IMG/VR virus record: IMGVR_UViG_3300046779_000899
Location: 1 to 56,544 of that record
Length of the DNA stretch: 56,544 nucleotides
Source: a virus
Taxonomy: Duplodnaviria > Caudoviricetes
Reading direction: 5' to 3' (one strand)
Part shown: positions 3,001-55,957 of the stretch, piece after piece
Numbering within the stretch: the first letter of the stretch is position 1
How the letters are laid out: the number at the start of each line of letters is the position of its first letter
Notes under the pieces: generated by a model
Databases searched by the model: none
What the model saw: only the letters and a program-made list of their open reading frames with translations
Told to the model about the DNA's origin: nothing
Translations under genes and position numbers: made by a program

Positions 3001-4728
3001 GCTGGGGCTATACCAACAGTTGCTCAGCTAGCACAAGTTATCGCAGACCTAAAAACAGTACAGGACTTTGAGTCGGGGAAGAGCGTTGACGTTGGTGCAT
3101 ACGCAAATGCTGTATCAAGAATTAATAAGGTCAAGTCCGCTATCACTGATGCCACAAAGGCACAAGAAAAGGCCAACACAGTTACTAGCGAATATCCAGC
3201 AGGTGGAGACCAGGGTGGAGACAAGAAAAAGTCGCCATATCAAACAGCACTTGAGCAAATTAAGGCCAATACAAAAGAAATCCAGAACCAGATTAATGCT
3301 TTTAGAAAGCTAACCTCAGCAGGGTATTCTACTGAAAAAGCTTTTGAGATGGCCAAGGACCCAATTATTGCAGCTGCACTTGCATCTACAGAGGTTGGAA
3401 GTCCAGAGTGGAAGGCATTGACAAAGGCCATTAAAGAGTCAGAGGCTGCTGCCAAGAAGTTCGAGGCAGTTCAGAAGAAGACTCTAGAAGGGGCAACTGC
3501 AGAATTTGATAAGGCATACGGAAATGTTTCTGAAAAGTTCGCTGCCGAAACTGAGAAGCTTCAGTTAGCCTTTGAAAAGGCTAACCAGGGGGATATGAAT
3601 ACCATCACTCAGGCAGAGTCGGATATCGCAGCACTTGAGTACAAGCTAGATGACTATGACGCACTCATTGGTGATATTGAACTTAAAGAAGAAGAAGTAA
3701 ACAAGAAGTACGATAGCAGACTCGAAGCATTGGACAAGATTGAAGCTGCTAATGCCAGAATTGTTCAACAGCAAAAGGCACAGTTAACAATCGCTGATGC
3801 ATTGAGTCAAGGAGACATTTCGGCAGCTGCTAAGGCAGTTCAGGATGCAAGGCAAGAAGATGCTCAGGCAAGAATGGATGCCCAGAGAACCAATATTGAA
3901 AATGCAAGAACCTCTGAGCTTGGCGGAATCACTGCTGGTGGAAAGACAAGGGCACAGATTGAAAAAGAGGTTCTGGTCGTTCAGGCACAAATTAAGAAGA
4001 TTGAGGAAGAAACTCTAGAGCCAGCACAAGAGAGAGTTCGTATTGCACAAGCAAAACTAGATAAGGATATTGCATCACTAAAGGTAGCTGGAAAAACTCA
4101 GCTAGAGTGGGAAATTGTTGCAAGCAATATTAGAGTAGCAAAGACAGATACGGATGAGTTTGAGAAATCAATAAATGCTGCTCTTACTACTGCAATAAAT
4201 CTACAAAAGGTTCTTGCCAGCTTAACTACACCAGATGTACCTAATGGCCAAAATCCAAATCAGGCAAGAATAGATCAGCTTAACGCAAAAATTAATAGCA
4301 ACCGTGCTGCAGTTAATAAGAGCAAGGGTACTACGGCAAATGACAAGAAGCTGATGAAAGAAAATGAAAAGTTAATTACAGAACTTCGTACACTAACTGG
4401 AGACCCAAATGCTGGCAAGGTTGTCAAAAAGAATATGGGTGGGCTAATTAAGAGGTTGGCTGCTGGCGGATTTGCCATGGGTACAGACACTGTTCCTGCA
4501 ATGCTTACTCCAGGAGAATTTGTTGTTCGTAAGTATGCAGTTGAAAACTTTGGCAAGGATAATCTAAAGGCTATCAATAATGGAACATACTCTGGCGAAT
4601 CAGTGTATAATTATGAATTGAACATAAATATGTCTGGCACAAACCTAAGTGCAGATGACGTGGCAAAGACTGTTATGTCAAAGATTAGACAGATAGATTC
4701 ACAAAGAATACGAGGGAACACTCTATAA
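1..4728 (+). CDS. Tail tape measure protein (5'-truncated)
   Basis: Frame is open from base 1. Very long Ala/Gly-rich helical ORF with hydrophobic segments, coiled coil and two copies of the DTVPAMLTPGEFVV motif; followed by tail genes. Confidence 0.9.
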   Translation, partial: AGSTSQELAALSARELDKVSSSPMFKFKKAVEDIKVALAPVGEIFLQIATPVIEFGTKILNAFNNLDEKTKTFVTGLIAVVGGIGPVFLMTFGLLANGLANVIKGFTFVKSVFNKASVSSNDLGSQLSYMTQEQLTASAVAASLDQVHNNLIQTFTSEAGAIDLYTRALQKANQQAAAFSAPAVGRSRPTQKFASGGLVPGSGNKDTVPAMLTPGEFVVTKDTVEKNPGIIAALATGKVQGFANGGFVSGGAGGSKNIVNMFAEYALRLQNQRENMSRQSSTSSFEEILAPLSMRIGEARGIVPSQSQVKKGAFDDIATQYEDLTKKFTEKLNEDFEKTYADIKDVNERYRKSWQSAGKTVEQEVNAIKSEADRGVVRKTFGLDEDFYGTMPTMPRREGGKNLERARKSAFNLKDTGVRSYTSVLGGARAMFERRTGASASDKQMGHVFESMPTDISKVLSDPKVSNAAKKAGALIGATVTQNTTDGIKDITRQASPSREAYEAGENIGKGALQGIESTIDDARKVGRKSRRVIGTPNGAGGFNISRPGQNQSSRIADSPRTRTPRRASREGDLEMRQRETALAQRELTTSVTDATTKTRSFTAGLRNVSYVVSGLSGVALMFGSQLGDLGNVIFGASMAVSALTTAAEINAATGFISLGKMAEGAKGVTGFLGRMVNIGGKAVMTLGRFAGWIGLIATAIFGVVSLVNYINEQKEKERAKIEGLGDAATLTKTKLEALGSFFGKPVTNNAVENIGTFGAGVEPMSAEKRNEVQDLRENEDFQKEFGKDIKRLSTATKQEAIKTFQTISLTLFSQGYAKEQIQTVIDALKIEAGKTNVKFEVASIDVTTKQGATNFKQSANDMVDQFNRALATGKKTVKVPVVQAIGGGRGNMAKITYKEEIQTTKEYDQVLKTNSANILNRFTALQTMLAQGTITSKQYKDNWNALAGAIENGSNSADLGNAVFSGFTAELKKTNPEFAALLPAITGTGNQILVMQGLMAGAIPTVAQLAQVIADLKTVQDFESGKSVDVGAYANAVSRINKVKSAITDATKAQEKANTVTSEYPAGGDQGGDKKKSPYQTALEQIKANTKEIQNQINAFRKLTSAGYSTEKAFEMAKDPIIAAALASTEVGSPEWKALTKAIKESEAAAKKFEAVQKKTLEGATAEFDKAYGNVSEKFAAETEKLQLAFEKANQGDMNTITQAESDIAALEYKLDDYDALIGDIELKEEEVNKKYDSRLEALDKIEAANARIVQQQKAQLTIADALSQGDISAAAKAVQDARQEDAQARMDAQRTNIENARTSELGGITAGGKTRAQIEKEVLVVQAQIKKIEEETLEPAQERVRIAQAKLDKDIASLKVAGKTQLEWEIVASNIRVAKTDTDEFEKSINAALTTAINLQKVLASLTTPDVPNGQNPNQARIDQLNAKINSNRAAVNKSKGTTANDKKLMKENEKLITELRTLTGDPNAGKVVKKNMGGLIKRLAAGGFAMGTDTVPAMLTPGEFVVRKYAVENFGKDNLKAINNGTYSGESVYNYELNINMSGTNLSADDVAKTVMSKIRQIDSQRIRGNTL

Positions 4729-5390
4729 TGGCAACTAGTCAATACATGTCTGGTAGAAGAAAGTACCAAAGGCCTCAAGCCTTGCTATTTTCTGACAATC
4801 CTGGAGTTGTAGATTCTGGATATCTGGTTCCAGTAGGTTATGAAATTGGAGCAGAGACTCAATCGGTAAATGACCAAAGCCTAATTGATCAGTTTTTAAT
4901 CCTATCAGATGACAATAGAGAAGCCCTATCTATGGCTATCCAAAGAATTGAAAATCGTGAGCGTATGATTAATGGTAGAATGAGATCACACCACATAGCC
5001 GATAAAAGAACAATCTCTGTATCCTGGAAAGACCTTCCATCAAGAGCATTCTCTGGAGATCCAAACTTTAATATTGCTACTGGAAAGCCAGCTCTATATA
5101 ATACTGGAAAGCCAGCTGCCCTAGACAACATTTTTACTACTGATGGTGGTGCAGGTGGGGTTGAGCTAAAGCATTGGTATGATATGCACAAGGGGCCATT
5201 CTGGGTTTTTGTTGCATATGACAACTATCGAGAGCTTGGGCTAAGTAGTCCGTCAGGACAGCAACCTAATTTACAAAAGTATAATGAGGTTATCGAGATG
5301 TATATTACAGACTTTAGCTATTCAGTTCAGAGACGTGGTGGGGCTACCTATGATCTATGGGACGTGTCTATAACGCTAGAGGAAGTATAA
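4728..5390 (+). CDS. Minor tail protein (distal-tail-like)
   Basis: Directly after the tape measure gene (TAATG overlap); beta-rich, ends VSITLEEV. Confidence 0.6.
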   Translation: MATSQYMSGRRKYQRPQALLFSDNPGVVDSGYLVPVGYEIGAETQSVNDQSLIDQFLILSDDNREALSMAIQRIENRERMINGRMRSHHIADKRTISVSWKDLPSRAFSGDPNFNIATGKPALYNTGKPAALDNIFTTDGGAGGVELKHWYDMHKGPFWVFVAYDNYRELGLSSPSGQQPNLQKYNEVIEMYITDFSYSVQRRGGATYDLWDVSITLEEV

Positions 5391-5391
5391 A

Positions 5392-8300
5392 GTGTTTATT
5401 GATAATAGTCTTAAAAATCATCTAGAAACTTCTGGAACTATAAAATCCAAGGCGGTCGTGCTTGCTGAGTGGAACATGAATTCCATGGATAATATAGACC
5501 ATGTTGGCAATTATAGACATAGACCACTAGAAACTAATTCTATTTACAGGACAACAATCAACACCTTTGATGTAAATGATGAGGGAAACTTCTATACAGA
5601 CGCAACCTATTCTGATATTAAAATTGATGGCGGATTTTCAGATACAAATGAGCCAGTAGTTTTTCAGCCAAGAATTGAAAAAGAACAGTCGCTGTACTCT
5701 CTAGAAGACTGCTTTGGAAAGTTTAGGCCAAGATCTGGAATCAATAAGCTCAGGTATTTTGACAATAGGTTTTCTCATCACACAAATATTAGTATGGCCC
5801 AAAGACCAAGGTACTATATGGCAGATAGATATGATCAGTTTAAGTATTGGACATCATATAGGCTAGAGGAGAACATTGAGCGTGGAATTGCAAAAAATGT
5901 TTTAAATGGTCAATTTTTTATAGACGATGCAGCACCATTTGTGGTATACAAAAATGCAGTTCCTGCAAATAGACTTGTTGTCAAAATGCAAACAAATGTT
6001 GGTGATGTTGACCTAGGACCTTTTACTAACTCGTATGGCTCTTTTACAGATCCTCTATATGGCAATGAAAATAAGACAACTCCAATTAAGTGGAAAATTC
6101 AAACACTGCAAGGCGGAGGATGGGTAGATGCAATATCATTTGACGCATCATCAGTCAGGTCTGACGGTTCTCCAATTGTTGGATCAGACGGTTATGTAGA
6201 GATTCAGTTTGGACTGATAGTTCCTAGAGAGTATGCTAGTAACTTTAGACATGCTGGAGATTTACTAGTAGATACCCTACTGCCAAATAATGCATTTGAA
6301 GGTGACGCTTTTCTAGTTAAAGCAAGCGATTCTGAACTTGGGCAGTATTATATTTGGTCAAACGGAGGGTACAGAACCTTCACCCCATCATATGGCTGGA
6401 AACTATATGAAGAGTCTAATACTAGCATCTCTGGACTAGTAGCTAATTTAGTAGATGTCGACAAATATAACGATATTGGTTCTGGACAGACAAAATATAG
6501 AGATCTGGAATATATTTCTGGCATTAGAATTATCGTAGATACCATGAACAAGATTGACTCTACTTTTGACCTTATTGAGATGTCTCCTAGGCTAATTGCA
6601 GATTTATCAGATTCTGTTCTAGACTTTAATATTACTAAGCAGGCATCAGATTTAGGGATAAATGGGTTGCCAGTCGGACAGCTGTTAGCTTCTACTGGAT
6701 CCCTACAGCTATTCGACGAGACCCAGGCTTTTAATCCAAATAACCCGAATAGTTTAATAGCAGGGCACTTGGATAAAAAAATTCAGTTTAAGTTCTATGA
6801 AGGTGTTTTAGAGGTCGCAGATTCTACCAATTACTATGTTCCAATTAAAACGCTATACTCAGAGTCAGCACCAACTTTTGACAACTCTTCAAAAATGGTT
6901 ACGGTTGACCTAAGAGACATGTTCTTCTATTTTGAGTCACTCACCGCACCACAGATTTTTGTGCAAGGTGCATCATTAAGCTATGCAGTTTCGCTACTTC
7001 TAGACAATATAGGGTTCTCAAATTATATGTTTAAAAGGGTACCAGGAGAAGTTGAGGAAATAATTCCAGACTTCTTTATCCCACCAGACAGAACTGTTGC
7101 TCAGATATTACAGGAGATAGCCATATCTACCCAGACCGCAATGTTCTTTGACGAGTATAATAATTTTATCATGATGAGCAAAAACTATATGATGCCATCA
7201 TCAACCGATAGAGCAACAGATTTAACATTGTATGGAAATGACATTCTTTTAGATTCTGATGGAAATGAGTTGCCATATATTGATCACGTAAGCTCAACAT
7301 CCTTGCTGCCAAAATCAAAAGCAGGTGGAGTGTATACTGTAGGCGAAGAAAATGATATCTATGTCTGGTCTGATGATGCAGATGCTTGGGTTGCTGCAGG
7401 AACTTATGTTAGCACTAAAAATCCTGCAAATATTGTAGAGCTAACTTCAGAAACTAACCACATATACAATGGTGGAAAAATTATCTATACCCCTAGATAC
7501 TTGCAAAAGAGCTATGGATCAATTCGCCAGGCATATTTAGTTGACCAGGATAAAACTTGGATTTATAAGCCTGCGTTATTGTGGGAGGTAGCTGGAACAG
7601 AAAAGACTAAGTCTACCAATGGCGAGATATCTAATCAGTCATCATTTGTGCTTGGTGCAATACCACTAAACTCAAAACTTACAAAAGAACTGCCACAGGT
7701 AGTTAATCACAGGCTTATCAATAACACCATTGATTTTGGAGAAGGAATATACTGGATCACAAGATACAATGGATACTTTTACTCAAATGGCGAAGTAATA
7801 AAGTTTGATGCAGTGCAGTATAACGTTCCAAAAAATGTTATTGGTGATTCTGGAATATCTGTAGAAGATAATAACGTTTGGATAACAAGTGCACAAGAAT
7901 ATGAGAATTACTTTTCAAAACTATCGTTTAATGGAAAAATGTATCCAACTGGACTTGTAAGGGTTTATGCCGAGCCTAACTATGAAATAGTGGGCGGAGT
8001 TACAAGACTTAAGAATGGTTCAGTCGCTAAACACGGTAGGGGCCAATTTGGGACACAGGTAGTAGATCATGAAGCAGGGCTAAGTGACTACTGGTCTAAT
8101 CCACAAAATAGAAGGGCATGTACTATGGACTCTTCATACCTATTTTCTGACGCAGACATTCCGTCTACAGCTATCGGCTCGGCTGGTGTAAATAATACAA
8201 TTGCTGCCAAGACAACAGCTAATGGTATTATCAAAAATTTCTTTAGCAGTTCTTACATTGCTGAATCAGAACTAAATAGCCTTAGGGCAACACAGTCTGG

Positions 8301-37195: not shown

Positions 37196-37999
37196 ATGAA
37201 AAAATTTATTAGTATTGTAGCATCTGCTATTTTTGCAGTATCACTGGCCACCCCAGTACACGCAGAAGAAACAAAGACATTGGCTATTGTTGATAGCTAC
37301 TTTGACCTCTCAAAGCTTTCTGGCAACATTGAGTCAGCCTGTATCGCAGTAGTTGGATGTGAGCTAACTCCAACACCAAAGGCTGGATTTTCAGACGCAT
37401 ACAACCACGGCACAGCAATGGCCGAGATTGCTCTAAAGCAAAATCCAAATGTTAAGCTATTGCTTATTCGAGCAGCTTCAGCAACCAAGAATATTCGAAC
37501 TGGCATTGTCTCCATTGGTACGCTAAATGGAAACGACTTTCTAAAGTCTTTGCAGTATGTTTCTACAAGGTCAGACGTAAATGCTGTATCCTTCTCATAT
37601 AACCTGTCTGGTAACAAGACATGTTCGCTATCTACAACTGGTGGCGTAAATGTTCGAGTCGTAGAACCACAGATCAAGGATGCTATTGTATCTCTTAAAT
37701 CTAAGAATGTCCCAGTATTTTCATCTACTGGAAACAAGGCAGGTGCTGCTGTAAACTATCCAGCATGTATTCAGGAAGTAAACTCTGTTGGGGTTGGAGA
37801 CCTAAATCGTAAGGGTAACATTTCTAGCGTATTTACGTTCGATGCTAATACTGACTACTTCGTAACTGGAACTGTTGCAAACTATAACTCAAAGATCTTT
37901 GGACTAATTCCAAATACCACTTCAGCTGGTAACGTAGCTGCTGCTGCAAAGTATTTGCTAGGATCGCTTGACAGCAAGTTTGTAAACGTGCTACAATAA
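37196..37999 (+). CDS. Secreted subtilisin-like (S8) peptidase
   Basis: Signal peptide ending VHA; AIVDS, NHGTAM, STGN, YPAC, TTSAG. Confidence 0.75.
   Translation: MKKFISIVASAIFAVSLATPVHAEETKTLAIVDSYFDLSKLSGNIESACIAVVGCELTPTPKAGFSDAYNHGTAMAEIALKQNPNVKLLLIRAASATKNIRTGIVSIGTLNGNDFLKSLQYVSTRSDVNAVSFSYNLSGNKTCSLSTTGGVNVRVVEPQIKDAIVSLKSKNVPVFSSTGNKAGAAVNYPACIQEVNSVGVGDLNRKGNISSVFTFDANTDYFVTGTVANYNSKIFGLIPNTTSAGNVAAAAKYLLGSLDSKFVNVLQ
37968..37997 (+). promoter_or_regulatory. Housekeeping-sigma promoter of the first tRNA/ncRNA cluster
   Basis: TTGACA-18-TACAAT with TG extension, 12 nt before tRNA-Asn. Confidence 0.75.
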
Positions 38000-38009
38000 T
38001 ATGTAGCAA

Positions 38010-38081
38010 TCCCCTTTAGCTCAACGGCAGAGCAGAGAGCTGTTAACTCTAAGGTTCCTGGTTCGAATCCAGGGAGGGGAG
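38010..38081 (+). tRNA. tRNA-Asn(GTT)
   Basis: Full cloverleaf; anticodon loop CTGTTAA; TTCGAAT. Confidence 0.95.
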
Positions 38082-38089
38082 CGATGGAG

Positions 38090-38244
38090 ATTAATCACTT
38101 CATTCGTAGGAGGCACTCTACGTAGAAAGCTGCCAGATGTAAGTATCTATAAACTTACCTCGTGGGGTTAGATCCCCTCAGCGGTTAGTTACCGATGTAG
38201 CAATAACTCAGTAGGTGAGGGAGTGATTTACCCAAGATCCTGCA
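38090..38244 (+). ncRNA. Candidate structured ncRNA A
   Basis: No ORF; closing helix plus internal hairpins and a possible pseudoknot (see findings). Confidence 0.5.
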
Positions 38245-38247
38245 CGG

Positions 38248-38322
38248 AGCGGTATAGAGGAGTTCGGAGTCCTCGTAGGCCTCATAAGCCTGAGATCGCA
38301 GGTTCGAATCCTGCTACCGCAA
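38248..38322 (+). tRNA. tRNA-Met(CAT), initiator-like
   Basis: Anticodon loop CTCATAA; A1/A72 mismatch. Confidence 0.9.
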
Positions 38323-38374
38323 CTAATGGTTCCACCTGCACCACTCTTCGGGTATAAGATAAAAGCAGGTAAAT

Positions 38375-38445
38375 GCGGATATTGCATAAAGGTAGTGCTT
38401 CAGTCTTCCAAACTGATGGTGGGAGTTCGATTCTCCCTATCCGCT
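38375..38445 (+). tRNA. tRNA-Gly(TCC)
   Basis: GCGGATA/TATCCGC acceptor, loop CTTCCAA, U73. Confidence 0.95.
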
Positions 38446-38449
38446 CAAA

Positions 38450-38632
38450 CACAGAAACGACGGTTTCTGTGGAGTATGGCTGAATAATCCTCAGAGTCAA
38501 ATGGGGAGGATAAGGCAACTTGGGGACTAGCGTCCAAGCTTAGCAAGCTAAACTGAGGGTGTGCTCAAAAGCGGATCTTACTGGACCGTATTGACTAGGC
38601 ACTGGTGGTAAAAAGCAATCCACCTACTCACA
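38450..38632 (+). ncRNA. Candidate structured ncRNA C
   Basis: At least six helices, including a pseudoknot. Confidence 0.55.
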
Positions 38633-38639
38633 CTACAGA

Positions 38640-38799
38640 CTTACACCTGCGGTTCGTAACTGTTCAGCACCTCGAAAGAGATCAAGTTGTAAGCTATAAT
38701 AGAATACACCACACTTGGTTAATTAAATCTGAGTACAGGCAATAGGTTATCCATGGTGTATCCGTCAAGGTTTGGTCTCCTGCATTGCAAATACGACCA
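38640..38799 (+). ncRNA. Candidate structured ncRNA segment D
   Basis: Three-way junction with GAAA tetraloop, an 8-bp closed domain and a hairpin. Confidence 0.4.
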
Positions 38800-38865
38800 G
38801 GGCTGTATGGTAACTGAAAGCACTTCAGGTGAAGCCATGTCAAACGGTGCAAATCCGACAGCCCA
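38800..38865 (+). ncRNA. tRNA-like RNA without canonical D/anticodon arms
   Basis: GGGCTGT/ACAGCCC-A acceptor-like stem; CGG-TGCAAAT-CCG T-arm-like hairpin. Confidence 0.55.
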
Positions 38866-38869
38866 CTAT

Positions 38870-38943
38870 GGCTCCATAGCTCAGTTGGTTAGAGCACCAC
38901 CCTGTCACGGTGGGGGTCGTCGGTTCAAGTCCGATTGGAGTCG
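38870..38943 (+). tRNA. tRNA-Asp(GTC)
   Basis: Cloverleaf; loop CTGTCAC; G73. Confidence 0.95.
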
Positions 38944-38959
38944 CTCTTTGTACATTGGT

Positions 38960-39092
38960 CTGAACAACCTAGTACTAAGATCGTTATACTGAAATCTGCA
39001 CCGTGGACGCATCAGGAGACGTGGTTCAGCACAATTGACCTGCTCTGCTAACCCACTAGGTATAACAGCTATCAGCTCTTTGCATGGATAGC
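38960..39092 (+). ncRNA. Candidate multiply pseudoknotted ncRNA F
   Basis: Three mutually crossing 6-bp complementarities plus hairpins. Confidence 0.5.
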
Positions 39093-39096
39093 ACAT

Positions 39097-39170
39097 GCTT
39101 CCTTAGCTCAGTTGGCCAGAGCAATCGCCTTGTAAGCGATAGGTCGTCAGTTCGAACCTGACAGGGAGCT
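39097..39170 (+). tRNA. tRNA-Thr(TGT)
   Basis: Cloverleaf; loop CTTGTAA. Confidence 0.95.
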
Positions 39171-39189
39171 CTCAATAGAAAGTGGGACA

Positions 39190-39894
39190 ATGCTAATAGT
39201 TGGCGGTATAGATATTGGAAACAGAATGGACACTAGTCCAAGAATGCTTAATGCAATCTCTCACTTCCAAGTTATTGTAGTAGAAAATATAGAAAGCTTC
39301 AATCGCATGTGCATCGAGCTAGGAATCAATCCTAAAGCCAAACTGATCGAATACTATGCACCTATGGAAGAGTCTAAGGAAAAAGCTGTAGTGCATGAAA
39401 TTCTAGAACACCTAAATCATGGCGATGATGTTCTACTCATGTCTGACGATGGAATGCCAGGCATAGCTGATCCAGGTGGACTTGTAATAGACTTGGCACA
39501 CAGAGTTGGCTACAGGGTTTCGGTATTTCCAGGACCATCAATTGTATCTACATTGCCAGCAGTGCTTGGTGTAGACAGCAGACGATTTACATTTGAGGAT
39601 GAGATCCCATCAGACAGGTCTGAGAGACTACAGCTACTGCAAAAACTGTATGTTGAGGGTAGGGGCGTTGTGTTCATTGTCAAGAATCGTAGAGATGACA
39701 ACTCAAACTTTAAAGAAGTAATTAAAGATATCGCCACAGTAATTCCAGAAGGAAATACTATTGGTATTGGGGTAAACCTAACAATGAAAAATGAGATAAT
39801 TATTAAGTCTAGAGTTGGCGAGCTATATAGTAGAATTGATCACTATAACTTTTCGCAAGAAGATTTTATATCTTTGTATGTAGATTGTAGATAA
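39190..39894 (+). CDS. RsmI-like (tetrapyrrole-methylase fold) SAM-dependent methyltransferase
   Basis: IGNRMDTSPR, LMSDDGMPGIADPG and FPGPS match the RsmI motifs IGNLxDxT.R, SDAGxPxISDPG and PGPS. Confidence 0.8.
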   Translation: MLIVGGIDIGNRMDTSPRMLNAISHFQVIVVENIESFNRMCIELGINPKAKLIEYYAPMEESKEKAVVHEILEHLNHGDDVLLMSDDGMPGIADPGGLVIDLAHRVGYRVSVFPGPSIVSTLPAVLGVDSRRFTFEDEIPSDRSERLQLLQKLYVEGRGVVFIVKNRRDDNSNFKEVIKDIATVIPEGNTIGIGVNLTMKNEIIIKSRVGELYSRIDHYNFSQEDFISLYVDCR

Positions 39895-55750: not shown

Positions 55751-55779
55751 TTGCAATTATAATAAAAGTATGATACAAT
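55751..55779 (+). promoter_or_regulatory. Promoter for the leader RNA and second tRNA array
   Basis: TTGCAA-17-TACAAT with TG extension. Confidence 0.7.
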
Positions 55780-55784
55780 AAAAC

Positions 55785-55953
55785 TATGGAGCTAACTATG
55801 AAGTATAACGCACAATCGCATCAGCGATTTAGTTTGGCGTACTCATGGCACAAAGCCAGTCTCCAACCGAGCATCTAATCTAGCTCATTTAAAAAATAGA
55901 TTATCTAAAAAAACAAAATCAAGTAATATAAAACCAGACTAGTTAGCTCCATA
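55785..55953 (+). ncRNA. End-paired leader RNA containing a short ORF (55786 or 55798 to 55878)
   Basis: Perfect 14-nt inverted repeat TATGGAGCTAACTA / TAGTTAGCTCCATA at the two ends. Confidence 0.55.
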
Positions 55954-55957
55954 CTAA

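What the first reader, a model, noticed from the sequence alone, without database searches (positions are those of the whole stretch)
37968..39170. tRNA cluster used as a scaffold for an array of unknown structured RNAs
Seen: five tRNAs take up about 365 of 1,160 nt. Every long spacer is ORF-free, richer in G+C than the AT-rich intergenic DNA elsewhere, and full of helices, whereas spacers within the Trp-to-Leu run of the second array are 0-5 nt. Established: RNase P and 3' tRNA processing release intervening RNA, and GOLLD/ROOL RNAs and theta ribozymes occur next to phage tRNAs. Inference: a polycistronic ncRNA cassette releasing five or six discrete RNAs. I cannot match them to a known family from memory. 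This is a strong candidate for an undescribed system.
Basis: partly seen in the sequence, partly recalled or inferred. Interest (0 to 1): 0.8.

Follow-up and report, generated by a model that had tools for sequence, protein, structure and literature searches.

The report
Phage tRNA operon carrying folded RNAs
The long gaps between five tRNA genes of this uncultured freshwater phage hold a set of conserved folded RNAs; one is the known manA RNA and the others belong to no catalogued family, which suggests that phages use tRNA gene clusters to carry and swap small RNA genes.

Summary
Observation confirmed; interpretation partly supported. Five tRNAs (Asn, Met, Gly, Asp, Thr; 371 of 1,162 nt) lie behind a near-consensus promoter, with spacers of 165, 51, 423 and 152 nt.

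One claim is wrong. The first 182 nt of the 423-nt spacer are the catalogued manA RNA (Rfam RF01745, 72.1 bits against a cut-off of 55.2).

The other spacers match no Rfam family and no GenBank phage. They are still real, conserved RNA modules with compensatory base changes:
- S1, 165 nt
- S2, a 45-nt two-helix element
- S3b, 235 nt, ending in an anticodon-less tRNA-like minihelix
- S4, 152 nt, pseudoknotted

Each recurs in other phage tRNA arrays at different positions. Some are far better conserved than the neighbouring genes, and S3b is present or absent in natural populations.

Most likely they are exchangeable RNA cassettes, co-transcribed with the tRNAs and released by tRNA processing, as with T4 RNAC and RNAD. 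Release and function are inferred, not shown. Single-sequence folding energies are not significant.

Earlier notes of this scan describe similar manA and tRNA-mimic cassettes on other DNA.

The parts
37968..37997 (+). Promoter-like site: TTGACA, 18-nt spacer, TACAAT with a TG before the -10 box. It lies inside the 3' end of the upstream ORF, 12 nt before tRNA-Asn.
   Evidence: 11 of 12 consensus matches, the best of 7 sites found (shuffles give a mean of 2.8). The same boxes are kept in relatives L002 and L003. Several other relatives show -10-like boxes (TATAAT) by eye in the printed upstream stretches, which the script's pattern did not match.
38010..38082 (+). tRNA-Asn (GTT)
   Evidence: 58.1 bits.
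38083..38247 (+). S1: a 165-nt uncatalogued structured RNA module. It has a 5' hairpin at 38083-38104, a multibranch core, and the hairpin GGGG/CCCC at 38164-38167 with 38174-38177.
   Evidence: 94% identical to L013:1608-1772 in the spacer alignment, where the flanking genes are 75-80% identical. 87% identical to L039:2931-3096(-), where it lies between tRNA-Asp and tRNA-Thr. Pair count: 95.3% of cells paired and 7 of 43 pairs changed on both sides. Variant contigs in runs X15 and X1 carry matching double changes. No Rfam match.
38248..38323 (+). tRNA-Met (CAT)
   Evidence: 53.9 bits.
38324..38374 (+). S2: a small two-helix element, UAAUGGU-N2-3-P1(6 bp)-ACCAC-P2(4 bp)-nGGGUAUn-P2'-UAAA(A)-P1'. 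It always starts right after a tRNA or the tRNA-like element.
   Evidence: 12 distinct copies. 119 of 120 pair cells are standard pairs, and 8 of 10 pairs show two or more Watson-Crick pair types. A pattern scan found 13 IMG/VR stretches.
38375..38446 (+). tRNA-Gly (TCC)
   Evidence: 66.6 bits.
38453..38634 (+). manA RNA (Rfam RF01745). The match is full length, with one internal hairpin of the model missing.
   Evidence: 72.1 bits against a gathering score of 55.2, E 1.9e-16, model positions 1-192. It is the only copy in the record.
38637..38799 (+). S3b body: domain 1 (38637-38699), domain 2 (38704-38761) and a linker hairpin (38773-38799).
   Evidence: 88% identical over 230 nt to L011:2279-2506, although the neighbouring RsmI-like protein is only 41% identical. 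Also found in L037, L032, L038 and L019, with domains present or absent. Pairs changed on both sides: 3 of 16 in domain 1 and 4 of 24 in domain 2 plus linker.
38799..38866 (+). tRNA-like minihelix at the 3' end of S3b. It has a 7-8-bp acceptor-like stem, a bulged arm in place of the D and anticodon arms, and a 3-bp stem with the T-loop-like loop UGCAAAU. 'AC' follows the stem. There is no anticodon.
   Evidence: 11 distinct copies. 99.6% of 231 cells paired, 8 of 21 pairs changed on both sides, 0 of 500 shuffles reach this, and slid controls give 32-49% paired. Not called as a tRNA by ARAGORN or Rfam.
38870..38944 (+). tRNA-Asp (GTC)
   Evidence: 66.9 bits.
38945..39096 (+). S4: a 152-nt uncatalogued pseudoknotted RNA module. 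Helices: 38957-38959 with 38980-38982; pseudoknot CUGAAC 38960-38965 with GUUCAG 39024-39029; 38983-38990 with 39059-39066; 3' hairpin 39068-39073 with 39087-39092.
   Evidence: Homologues lie in L013, L041, L045 and (distantly) L011, next to different tRNAs. Pair count on 4 sequences: 97.8% paired, 9 of 23 pairs changed on both sides, 0 of 500 shuffles reach this. No Rfam match.
39097..39171 (+). tRNA-Thr (TGT)
   Evidence: 66.7 bits.
39190..39894 (+). RsmI-like methyltransferase gene. It starts 18 nt after tRNA-Thr with no terminator-like site between. It is the syntenic anchor of the array in relatives.
   Evidence: PF00590, E 2.1e-16. 64 homologues. No + strand terminator-like site.

Best explanation
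This is a promoter-driven tRNA operon of an uncultured freshwater phage; its closest complete relative has a 116-kb genome. Every long inter-tRNA spacer is a separate, conserved, structured non-coding RNA cassette. In order: S1 (165 nt), S2 (about 45 nt), manA (182 nt, a known family), S3b (235 nt, a two-domain body with a linker and an anticodon-less tRNA-like 3' minihelix) and S4 (152 nt, pseudoknotted).

Shown here:
- The modules exist on the tRNA strand.
- They keep their helices through compensatory changes.
- They recur in other phage tRNA arrays next to different tRNAs.
- They are gained and lost as units.

Inferred:
- The whole unit is transcribed from the promoter at 37968-37997.
- RNase P cutting at each tRNA 5' end, and at the tRNA-like minihelix, sets the 3' ends of the cassette RNAs.
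- tRNA 3' trimming sets their 5' ends. The cassettes would then be released as free stable RNAs, as in the T4 tRNA region (RNAC and RNAD).

What the released RNAs do is unknown. manA has been reported to self-assemble into RNA cages in vitro. The tRNA-like element may serve as a processing or stability handle, or as a decoy for tRNA-binding host factors.
For: Known family. manA scores 72.1 bits against a cut-off of 55.2. In all 6 records where I found manA it sits inside a tRNA array. These are the window, L013, L025, L030, L041 and Rhodococcus phage Francesca (L004), giving 5 distinct sequences. It starts 3-8 nt after a tRNA or tRNA-model match and ends 1-19 nt before the next tRNA (in the window, directly before S3b).

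Covariation, module by module:
- tRNA-like element: 8 of 21 pairs changed on both sides, 99.6% of cells paired, 11 copies.
- S4: 9 of 23 pairs, 97.8% paired, 4 copies.
- S2: 119 of 120 cells paired, 8 of 10 pairs with two or more Watson-Crick types, 12 copies.
- S1: 7 of 43 pairs, 95.3% paired, 3 copies.
- S3b: 3 of 16 pairs in domain 1 and 4 of 24 in domain 2 plus linker.
- Slid-partner controls give 22-49% paired.

Strand. Invariant G-U pairs, for example columns 16-39 of the tRNA-like element in 11 of 11 copies, fit the + strand only.

Conservation above the flanks:
- S1 is 94% identical to L013 in the spacer alignment, where the genes are 75-80%.
- S3b is 88% identical to L011, where the adjacent protein is 41% identical.
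- manA is 94.7% identical to L030.

Cassette behaviour:
- The syntenic array is Asn-95-Asp-Glu-Thr in L002, Asn-52-Gly-54-Asp-Glu-Thr in L008, and Asn-S1-Met-S2-Gly-manA-Asp-S4-Thr in L013.
- S1 lies between Asp and Thr in L039.
- S4 lies before tRNA-Leu in L045 and between Asp and Glu in L011.
- Contigs of RNA run X15 and DNA run X3 join manA directly to tRNA-Asp, skipping S3b.

Packing. The last helix of S1, S2 and S4 ends 4 nt before the next tRNA and the tRNA-like element ends 3 nt before tRNA-Asp (read).

Transcription. The promoter-like site scores 11 of 12. A 214-nt contig of metatranscriptome run X15 (depth 19) covers tRNA-Asn plus a close S1 variant.

Precedent. [quoted passage not shown]
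Against: - No direct evidence of processing or of separate stable RNAs. The RNA runs were assembled contigs, and DNA can be present in RNA libraries.
- Single-sequence folding energies are no better than shuffles (z -0.5 to -1.8).
- S1 has only three genomic copies. Most of its core is invariant and so says nothing about structure, and the structure I counted was derived from the same alignment.
- The S4 and S3b counts rest on 4-5 related sequences.
- The tRNA-like copies were collected with a pattern that fixed the loop letters, so loop invariance is partly by construction.
- High identity between otherwise distant phages could reflect recent transfer rather than selection.
- No terminator separates the array from the RsmI-like gene, so a leader role for the last modules is not excluded.
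- None of the four laid runs covered 38981-39074. I draw no conclusion from that.
Confidence: 0.65

Rival explanations
1. The spacers are cis-acting parts of the tRNA precursor: structured leaders and trailers that set the order or rate of processing, protect the precursor, or pause transcription. They would be degraded after the tRNAs are cut out and would have no life of their own.
For: S2 is small (about 45 nt), always begins right after a tRNA 3' end, and is the most widespread module (13 IMG/VR stretches). No free ends have been shown.
Against: S1, S3b and S4 are optional. The relatives L002 and L008 carry the same tRNAs flush or with short spacers, so the tRNAs do not need them. The modules sit next to different tRNAs in different phages. 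manA, which travels the same way, is a stand-alone fold that assembles on its own in vitro (preprint 10.64898/2026.07.01.735769; abstract and one passage read).
Confidence: 0.15
2. The modules are selfish or accidental DNA insertions in a recombination hot spot. Their similarity between phages would come from recent horizontal transfer, not from selection for an RNA function.
For: The distribution is patchy and identity is very high between otherwise distant phages (S3b 88% where the protein is 41%). A 5-nt direct repeat, CACTA, lies at both ends of S3b (38631-38635 and 38864-38868). Natural variants lack S3b between those points, with 3 other letters at the joint in run X15 and the letters between not known in run X3.
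Against: Compensatory double changes keep the helices in every module, 99.6% and 97.8% of cells paired in the tRNA-like element and S4. Neutral DNA would not do this. No transposase or homing-endonuclease ORF lies in the spacers. Being mobile and having an RNA function can both be true.
Confidence: 0.08
3. manA and the neighbouring modules are riboswitch-like 5' leaders that control the downstream RsmI-like methyltransferase gene. A cis-regulatory 5'-UTR role was the original proposal for manA.
For: Weinberg et al. 2010 filed manA as a riboswitch candidate in 5' UTRs (PMC2864571, section 'manA and wcaG motifs' read). No terminator lies between tRNA-Thr and the gene.
Against: manA is separated from the gene by S3b, tRNA-Asp, S4 and tRNA-Thr. 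In all 6 records with manA it is bounded by tRNAs or tRNA-model matches, not by a start codon. The same gene follows arrays that lack manA, S1, S3b and S4 (L002, L008).
Confidence: 0.05
4. The spacers are decayed tRNA genes. Their lengths are roughly multiples of 75 nt.
For: S4 lies where tRNA-Glu lies in L002. S3b ends in a tRNA-shaped element.
Against: No tRNA-model match in any spacer at E up to 10. S4 and tRNA-Glu coexist in L011. The tRNA-like element is nearly invariant in 11 copies and its stems covary, so it is under selection as it is.
Confidence: 0.02

Closest known systems
manA RNA motif (Rfam RF01745; Weinberg et al. 2010, PMC2864571)
   Same: Window 38453-38634 is a member, at 72.1 bits over model positions 1-192. 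It occurs in a phage, as do many known members.
   Different: It lies between tRNA genes, not in a 5' UTR. One model hairpin is missing. I also found it in an actinophage tRNA array (Rhodococcus phage Francesca, 72.9 bits, not annotated in the record). It accounts for only 182 of the 791 spacer nt.
Phage T4 RNAC and RNAD (species 1 and 2 RNAs of the T4 tRNA region)
   Same: They are small RNAs of unknown role encoded within a phage tRNA gene cluster and transcribed with it (PMC3014915 and PMC9697503, passages). That RNase P helps mature them is my recollection and comes from no call.
   Different: No sequence similarity. S1, S3b and S4 gave no blastn match in 50,697 phage records, a collection that includes T4-type genomes. 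There are more modules here, of larger size, and they are exchanged between arrays.
YrlA / bacterial Y RNAs with a tRNA-like domain (Chen et al. 2014, PMC4201824)
   Same: Both are modular RNAs in which one domain copies part of a tRNA. M. smegmatis YrlA is cut by RNase P and receives CCA (passages read).
   Different: No Rfam match of any kind in S3b. No Ro60/TROVE gene in the window or in 3 complete or nearly complete relatives. The mimic here is at the 3' end, lacks a D arm and has a 3-bp T-like stem.
GOLLD, ROOL and HDV-like (theta) ribozymes next to phage tRNAs
   Same: The genomic habit is the same: structured RNAs adjacent to phage tRNA genes.
   Different: No match to any of the 4,227 Rfam families except manA and tRNA in 37900-39300 at E up to 10. 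The modules are much smaller than GOLLD or ROOL.

Membership tests
manA RNA (RF01745) | Covariance-model score at or above Rfam's gathering score over the full model | tested here: met
   72.1 bits against 55.2, model positions 1-192, E 1.9e-16.
manA RNA (RF01745) | All consensus helices present | tested here: inconclusive
   The cmscan alignment shows the outer pseudoknot strands and most hairpins. One hairpin (about model positions 100-116) is deleted.
manA RNA (RF01745) | Typical location in the 5' UTR of mannose, nucleotide or photosynthesis genes (a usual context, not strictly defining) | tested here: not met
   It lies 6 nt after tRNA-Gly and directly before S3b. Context as described in PMC2864571.
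manA RNA (RF01745) | Self-assembly into closed oligomers or cages | not testable with these tools
   Reported in vitro for other manA sequences (preprint 10.64898/2026.07.01.735769; abstract and one passage).
Canonical tRNA (RF00005), for the 38799-38866 element | Cloverleaf with D arm, anticodon arm and a 7-nt anticodon loop | tested here: not met
   No ARAGORN call and no Rfam tRNA match at E up to 10. The structure counted has one bulged arm with a 5-nt loop in place of the D and anticodon arms.
YrlA / Y RNA | Match to a curated Y-RNA model, and a Ro60 (TROVE) gene in the genome | tested here: not met
   No Rfam match. TROVE (PF05731) is absent from the window and from 3 of 3 relatives that are 99-100% complete. 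The control rang in 2 of 14 genomes.
T4 RNAC / RNAD | Encoded inside a phage tRNA cluster on the tRNA strand | tested here: met
T4 RNAC / RNAD | Sequence homology to the T4 RNAs | tested here: not met
   No blastn match for S1, S3b or S4 in the phage collection, which holds T4-type genomes. S2 was not searched alone.
GOLLD / ROOL / HDV-like ribozymes | Match to the Rfam covariance model | tested here: not met
   None among the 9 matches at E up to 10.

The most novel reading that the evidence does not exclude
Phage tRNA arrays may act as an exchange platform for a toolkit of structured RNA cassettes that borrow the host's tRNA-processing enzymes for maturation. The toolkit would include a dedicated anticodon-less tRNA-like handle that gives a non-tRNA RNA (the S3b body) a tRNA-type end. 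S1, S2, S3b and S4 would then be four new RNA families with jobs in infection. Possible jobs are decoys for tRNA-targeting host defences or tRNA-binding enzymes, or self-assembling RNAs like manA.
Probability: 0.25. Interest if true: 0.85.

Novelty: new variant of a known kind. Interest (0 to 1): 0.6.

Why it matters
Phage tRNA clusters are usually read only as codon-usage helpers. Here one 1.2-kb operon carries five non-tRNA folds. Four of them have compensatory evidence and no entry in Rfam, and they move between arrays as units together with manA, an RNA recently reported to form capsid-like cages in vitro.

This yields concrete families (S1, S2, S3b with its tRNA-like end, S4) that can be modelled, searched in metagenomes and tested at the bench. 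It also argues that manA in phages is a free-standing RNA rather than a riboswitch.

If the RNAs act against tRNA-directed host defences, or assemble into particles, that would be a new layer of phage biology. If they are only processing spacers, the result is modest.

Tried and rejected
Folding energy. The MFE of each spacer compared with 200 shuffles was not significant, so I did not use it as support.

GenBank phages. blastn of S1, S3b and S4 found no match at E up to 1. The whole-region search gave 762 records. Of the 40 rows listed, all were tRNA matches except the manA-like hit in Rhodococcus phage Francesca.

Relatives through the downstream protein.

Pattern scans that gave chance hits:
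- L040.
- L042, L043 and L044.
- All 4 of 4 hits of the tRNA-like pattern in 185,579 species genomes. None has the stems.
- A second S1 18-mer found only L039 again.

Covariance models:
- R1 (S1) found only its 3 training copies in 308 kb of loci and nothing in 5 whole relatives' records.
- R2 (tRNA-like) found its 11 training copies plus one 16.5-bit match at E 0.22, which I disregard.

Other checks:
- The Glu-Trp spacer of the second array (55751-55957) has no look-alike in the loci held.
- The decayed-tRNA idea is rejected.
- The YrlA idea is rejected.
It overlaps the well-supported helix 38983-38990 with 39059-39066, so I left it out.
- The proposed UGGU/ACCA pseudoknot in S2 is invariant and therefore untestable.

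Sequencing runs. All four laid runs were contigs, with no starts, ends or strand. None covered 38981-39074, and I draw no conclusion from that. Shares under 0.2 were not used as evidence of habitat.

Literature:
- Searches for a published account of manA next to tRNAs or of these modules found none in the listings and passages I read.
Additional file 3 of PMC2864571 and Table S7 of PMC9964418 may list manA contexts next to tRNAs.
Full report
What is there

ARAGORN finds 13 tRNA genes in the window. Five form the flagged cluster on the + strand: Asn 38010-38082, Met 38248-38323, Gly 38375-38446, Asp 38870-38944 and Thr 39097-39171. Rfam confirms all five. They cover 371 of 1,162 nt.

The spacers are:
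- S1, 165 nt (38083-38247)
- S2, 51 nt (38324-38374)
- S3, 423 nt (38447-38869)
- S4, 152 nt (38945-39096)

In the second array the gaps from Trp to Ser are 0-4 nt. A near-consensus promoter-like site lies at 37968-37997, 12 nt before tRNA-Asn (TTGACA, 18 nt, TACAAT, TG before the -10 box, 11 of 12 matches). No + strand terminator-like site follows tRNA-Thr. An RsmI-like methyltransferase gene (PF00590) starts at 39190.

The window is a 56.5-kb IMG/VR virus record that CheckV rates 49% complete. Its closest complete relative is a 116,302-nt genome with terminal repeats. No cultured phage in GenBank has a close homologue of the RsmI-like protein (31% identity at most). The runs that hold most of the stretch are labelled freshwater metagenomes.

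Checking the observation

- G+C of the spacers is 0.454, against 0.412 for the window and for coding DNA. The other 14 gaps of at least 60 nt between ORFs of at least 100 aa have 0.25-0.43, leaving out the 69-nt window start (0.493) and the second tRNA array (0.456).
- The + strand ORFs in the region are 36-79 aa, and each overlaps a tRNA gene or a module boundary.
- On the single sequence the spacers do not fold better than shuffles: z -1.81 for S1, -0.89 for S2, -0.52 for S3b and -0.67 for S4. So 'full of helices' could not be established from this sequence alone.

A known family

Rfam places manA RNA (RF01745) at 38453-38634 with 72.1 bits, where the gathering score is 55.2. The match is full length and one model hairpin is missing. 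A permissive scan of 37900-39300 (E up to 10) gave only manA, the five tRNAs and three sub-threshold chance matches. Nothing fell in S1, S2, S4 or the rest of S3, which I call S3b (38635-38869).

manA was described as a riboswitch candidate in the 5' UTRs of marine bacteria and T4-like cyanophages (PMC2864571, section read). A 2026 preprint reports that manA RNAs form a 60-subunit cage in vitro (10.64898/2026.07.01.735769; abstract and one passage read; the word tRNA does not occur in its text).

Relatives and the cassette pattern

I used the RsmI-like protein as an anchor and patterns read off alignments. This brought in about 30 distinct phage contigs. The syntenic array varies widely:
- L002 and L003 (78% aa): Asn-95-Asp-3-Glu-0-Thr
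- L008, L009, L010 and L016 (about 45% aa): Asn-52-Gly-54-Asp-(3 or 76)-Glu-Thr
- L013 (82% aa): Asn-165-Met-51-Gly-193-Asp-168-Thr
- L011 (41% aa): Asn-654-Asp-156-Glu-14-Thr
- Others have spacers of 390-735 nt.

blastn then maps each window module:
- S1 matches L013 at 94% in the spacer alignment, where the flanking genes are 75-80%. It matches L039 at 87%, where it lies between tRNA-Asp and tRNA-Thr of a 21-tRNA array.
- S2 occurs after tRNA-Asn, tRNA-Met, tRNA-Asp or the tRNA-like element in 12 distinct versions.
- manA recurs in L013 (56.4 bits), L025 and L030 (64.5 bits, 94.7% identical to the window), L041 (64.8 bits) and Rhodococcus phage Francesca (72.9 bits, not annotated there). In every case it lies within a tRNA array.
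- S3b is 88% identical over 230 nt to L011, whose RsmI-like protein is only 41% identical. It recurs in L037, L032, L038 and L019, with domain 1 or domain 2 missing in some.
- S4 recurs in L013, L041, L045 (there before tRNA-Leu) and, more distantly, in L011 between Asp and Glu.

L013 lacks S3b: its manA ends 1 nt before tRNA-Asp. A contig of metatranscriptome run X15 and one of DNA run X3 show the same join of manA to tRNA-Asp. S3b is therefore present or absent in nature.

S1 is rare. Its model found only the three known copies in 308 kb of loci and none in five whole relatives.

Structure evidence

- tRNA-like element (38799-38866). In 11 distinct copies, 99.6% of 231 cells are paired and 8 of 21 pairs changed on both sides. 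None of 500 shuffles reaches this, and slid controls give 32-49% paired. The fold has a 7-8-bp acceptor-like stem, a bulged arm with a 5-nt loop, a 3-bp stem with the loop UGCAAAU, and 'AC' after the stem. It has no anticodon. The loop letters were fixed by the search pattern; the stems were not.
- S4. On 4 sequences, 97.8% of cells are paired and 9 of 23 pairs changed on both sides.
- S2. 119 of 120 cells are paired, and 8 of 10 pairs show two or more Watson-Crick types (script).
- S1. 95.3% of cells are paired and 7 of 43 pairs changed on both sides. All of these lie in three helices; the core is invariant. The structure came from the same alignment. Variant contigs in runs X15 and X1 add matched changes (38166 with 38175, and 38165 with 38176).
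- S3b. 3 of 16 pairs in domain 1 and 4 of 24 in domain 2 plus linker changed on both sides.
- Invariant G-U pairs in each module fit the + strand only.

How it most likely works

Shown: the spacers are independent, selected RNA folds on the tRNA strand. They are packed so that the last helix of S1, S2 and S4 ends 4 nt, and the tRNA-like element 3 nt, before the next tRNA. They are exchanged between arrays as units.

Inferred: there is one transcript from the promoter at 37968. RNase P cuts at every tRNA 5' end and at the tRNA-like minihelix, which fixes the 3' ends of the cassette RNAs. tRNA 3' trimming frees their 5' ends. This is the logic of the T4 tRNA region, which yields RNAC and RNAD, RNAs whose roles are still unknown (PMC3014915 and PMC9697503, passages).

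The only hint of expression is a 214-nt contig in an RNA library that covers tRNA-Asn plus an S1 variant. Function is open. I put about 0.65 on 'released stand-alone RNAs'. The rivals are cis-acting processing spacers (0.15), selfish or neutral insertions (0.08), leaders of the methyltransferase gene (0.05) and decayed tRNAs (0.02).

Comparison with the known

- manA: a member.
- Canonical tRNA, for the mimic: not a member.
- YrlA / Y RNA: works somewhat alike, with a tRNA-like domain that RNase P can cut (PMC4201824, passages). It is not a member: there is no Rfam match and no Ro60/TROVE gene in the window or in 3 complete or nearly complete relatives.
- T4 RNAC and RNAD: the same kind of arrangement, with no sequence similarity.
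- GOLLD, ROOL and HDV-like ribozymes: no match.

Novelty and score

The principle, non-tRNA RNAs carried in phage tRNA clusters, is known, and one module is catalogued. S1, S2, the S3b body, the tRNA-like handle and S4 are uncatalogued families with comparative support, and their cassette-like exchange is notable. Earlier AI notes of this scan report similar manA and tRNA-mimic cassettes in other phage windows. I used them as leads only. Verdict: a new variant of a known kind, interest 0.6.

Noticed in passing
L004:2484-2666 (Rhodococcus phage Francesca, PP978770.1, about 76482-76664): A full-length manA RNA (72.9 bits) lies flush between tRNA-Met and tRNA-Lys of a soil actinophage. The record has no feature there. 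manA is usually described from marine bacteria and cyanophages.
   Followed up: partly
L011:2104-2171, L019:297-365, L018:10145-10211, L027:2164-2230, L031:1761-1828, L030:2237-2304, L029:8170-8237: The long spacers of relatives hold 67-69-nt matches to the Rfam tRNA model (41-46 bits) that ARAGORN does not call. They may be unusual tRNAs or further tRNA-shaped cassettes. In L030 one sits 8 nt before manA.
   Followed up: no
L035:10893-10975: An 83-nt match to the tmRNA family (53.3 bits against a gathering score of 47) lies about 65 nt downstream of a copy of the tRNA-like element, on a contig stretch with no tRNA genes.
   Followed up: no
window 38631-38635 and 38864-38868: The same 5 letters (CACTA) end manA and end the tRNA-like element, which are the two borders of S3b. 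Contigs in runs X15 and X3 lack S3b between these points. tRNA-Met is also followed by ACTA.
   Followed up: partly
window 38248-38322: As read from the sequence, tRNA-Met pairs A1 opposite A72. That is a mismatch at the top of the acceptor stem, of the kind that marks bacterial initiator tRNAs. Not checked further.
   Followed up: no
L039 (IMG/VR contig of 94,807 nt), oriented 4221-6670: This relative has 21 tRNA genes in one run. The run joins what are two arrays 16.5 kb apart in the window (Asn...Thr, then Glu-Trp-Phe...).
   Followed up: no
L013:1415-1534: The closest relative has about 120 extra bases between the end of the upstream gene and tRNA-Asn, where the window has its promoter and 12 nt. 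Not examined.
   Followed up: no
L011:2511-2588, also L019, L031 and L037 after the tRNA-like element: In four relatives a shared stretch of about 80 nt (beginning ACGATTCT) follows the tRNA-like element before the next tRNA. It may be another cassette that the window lacks.
   Followed up: no
   Followed up: partly
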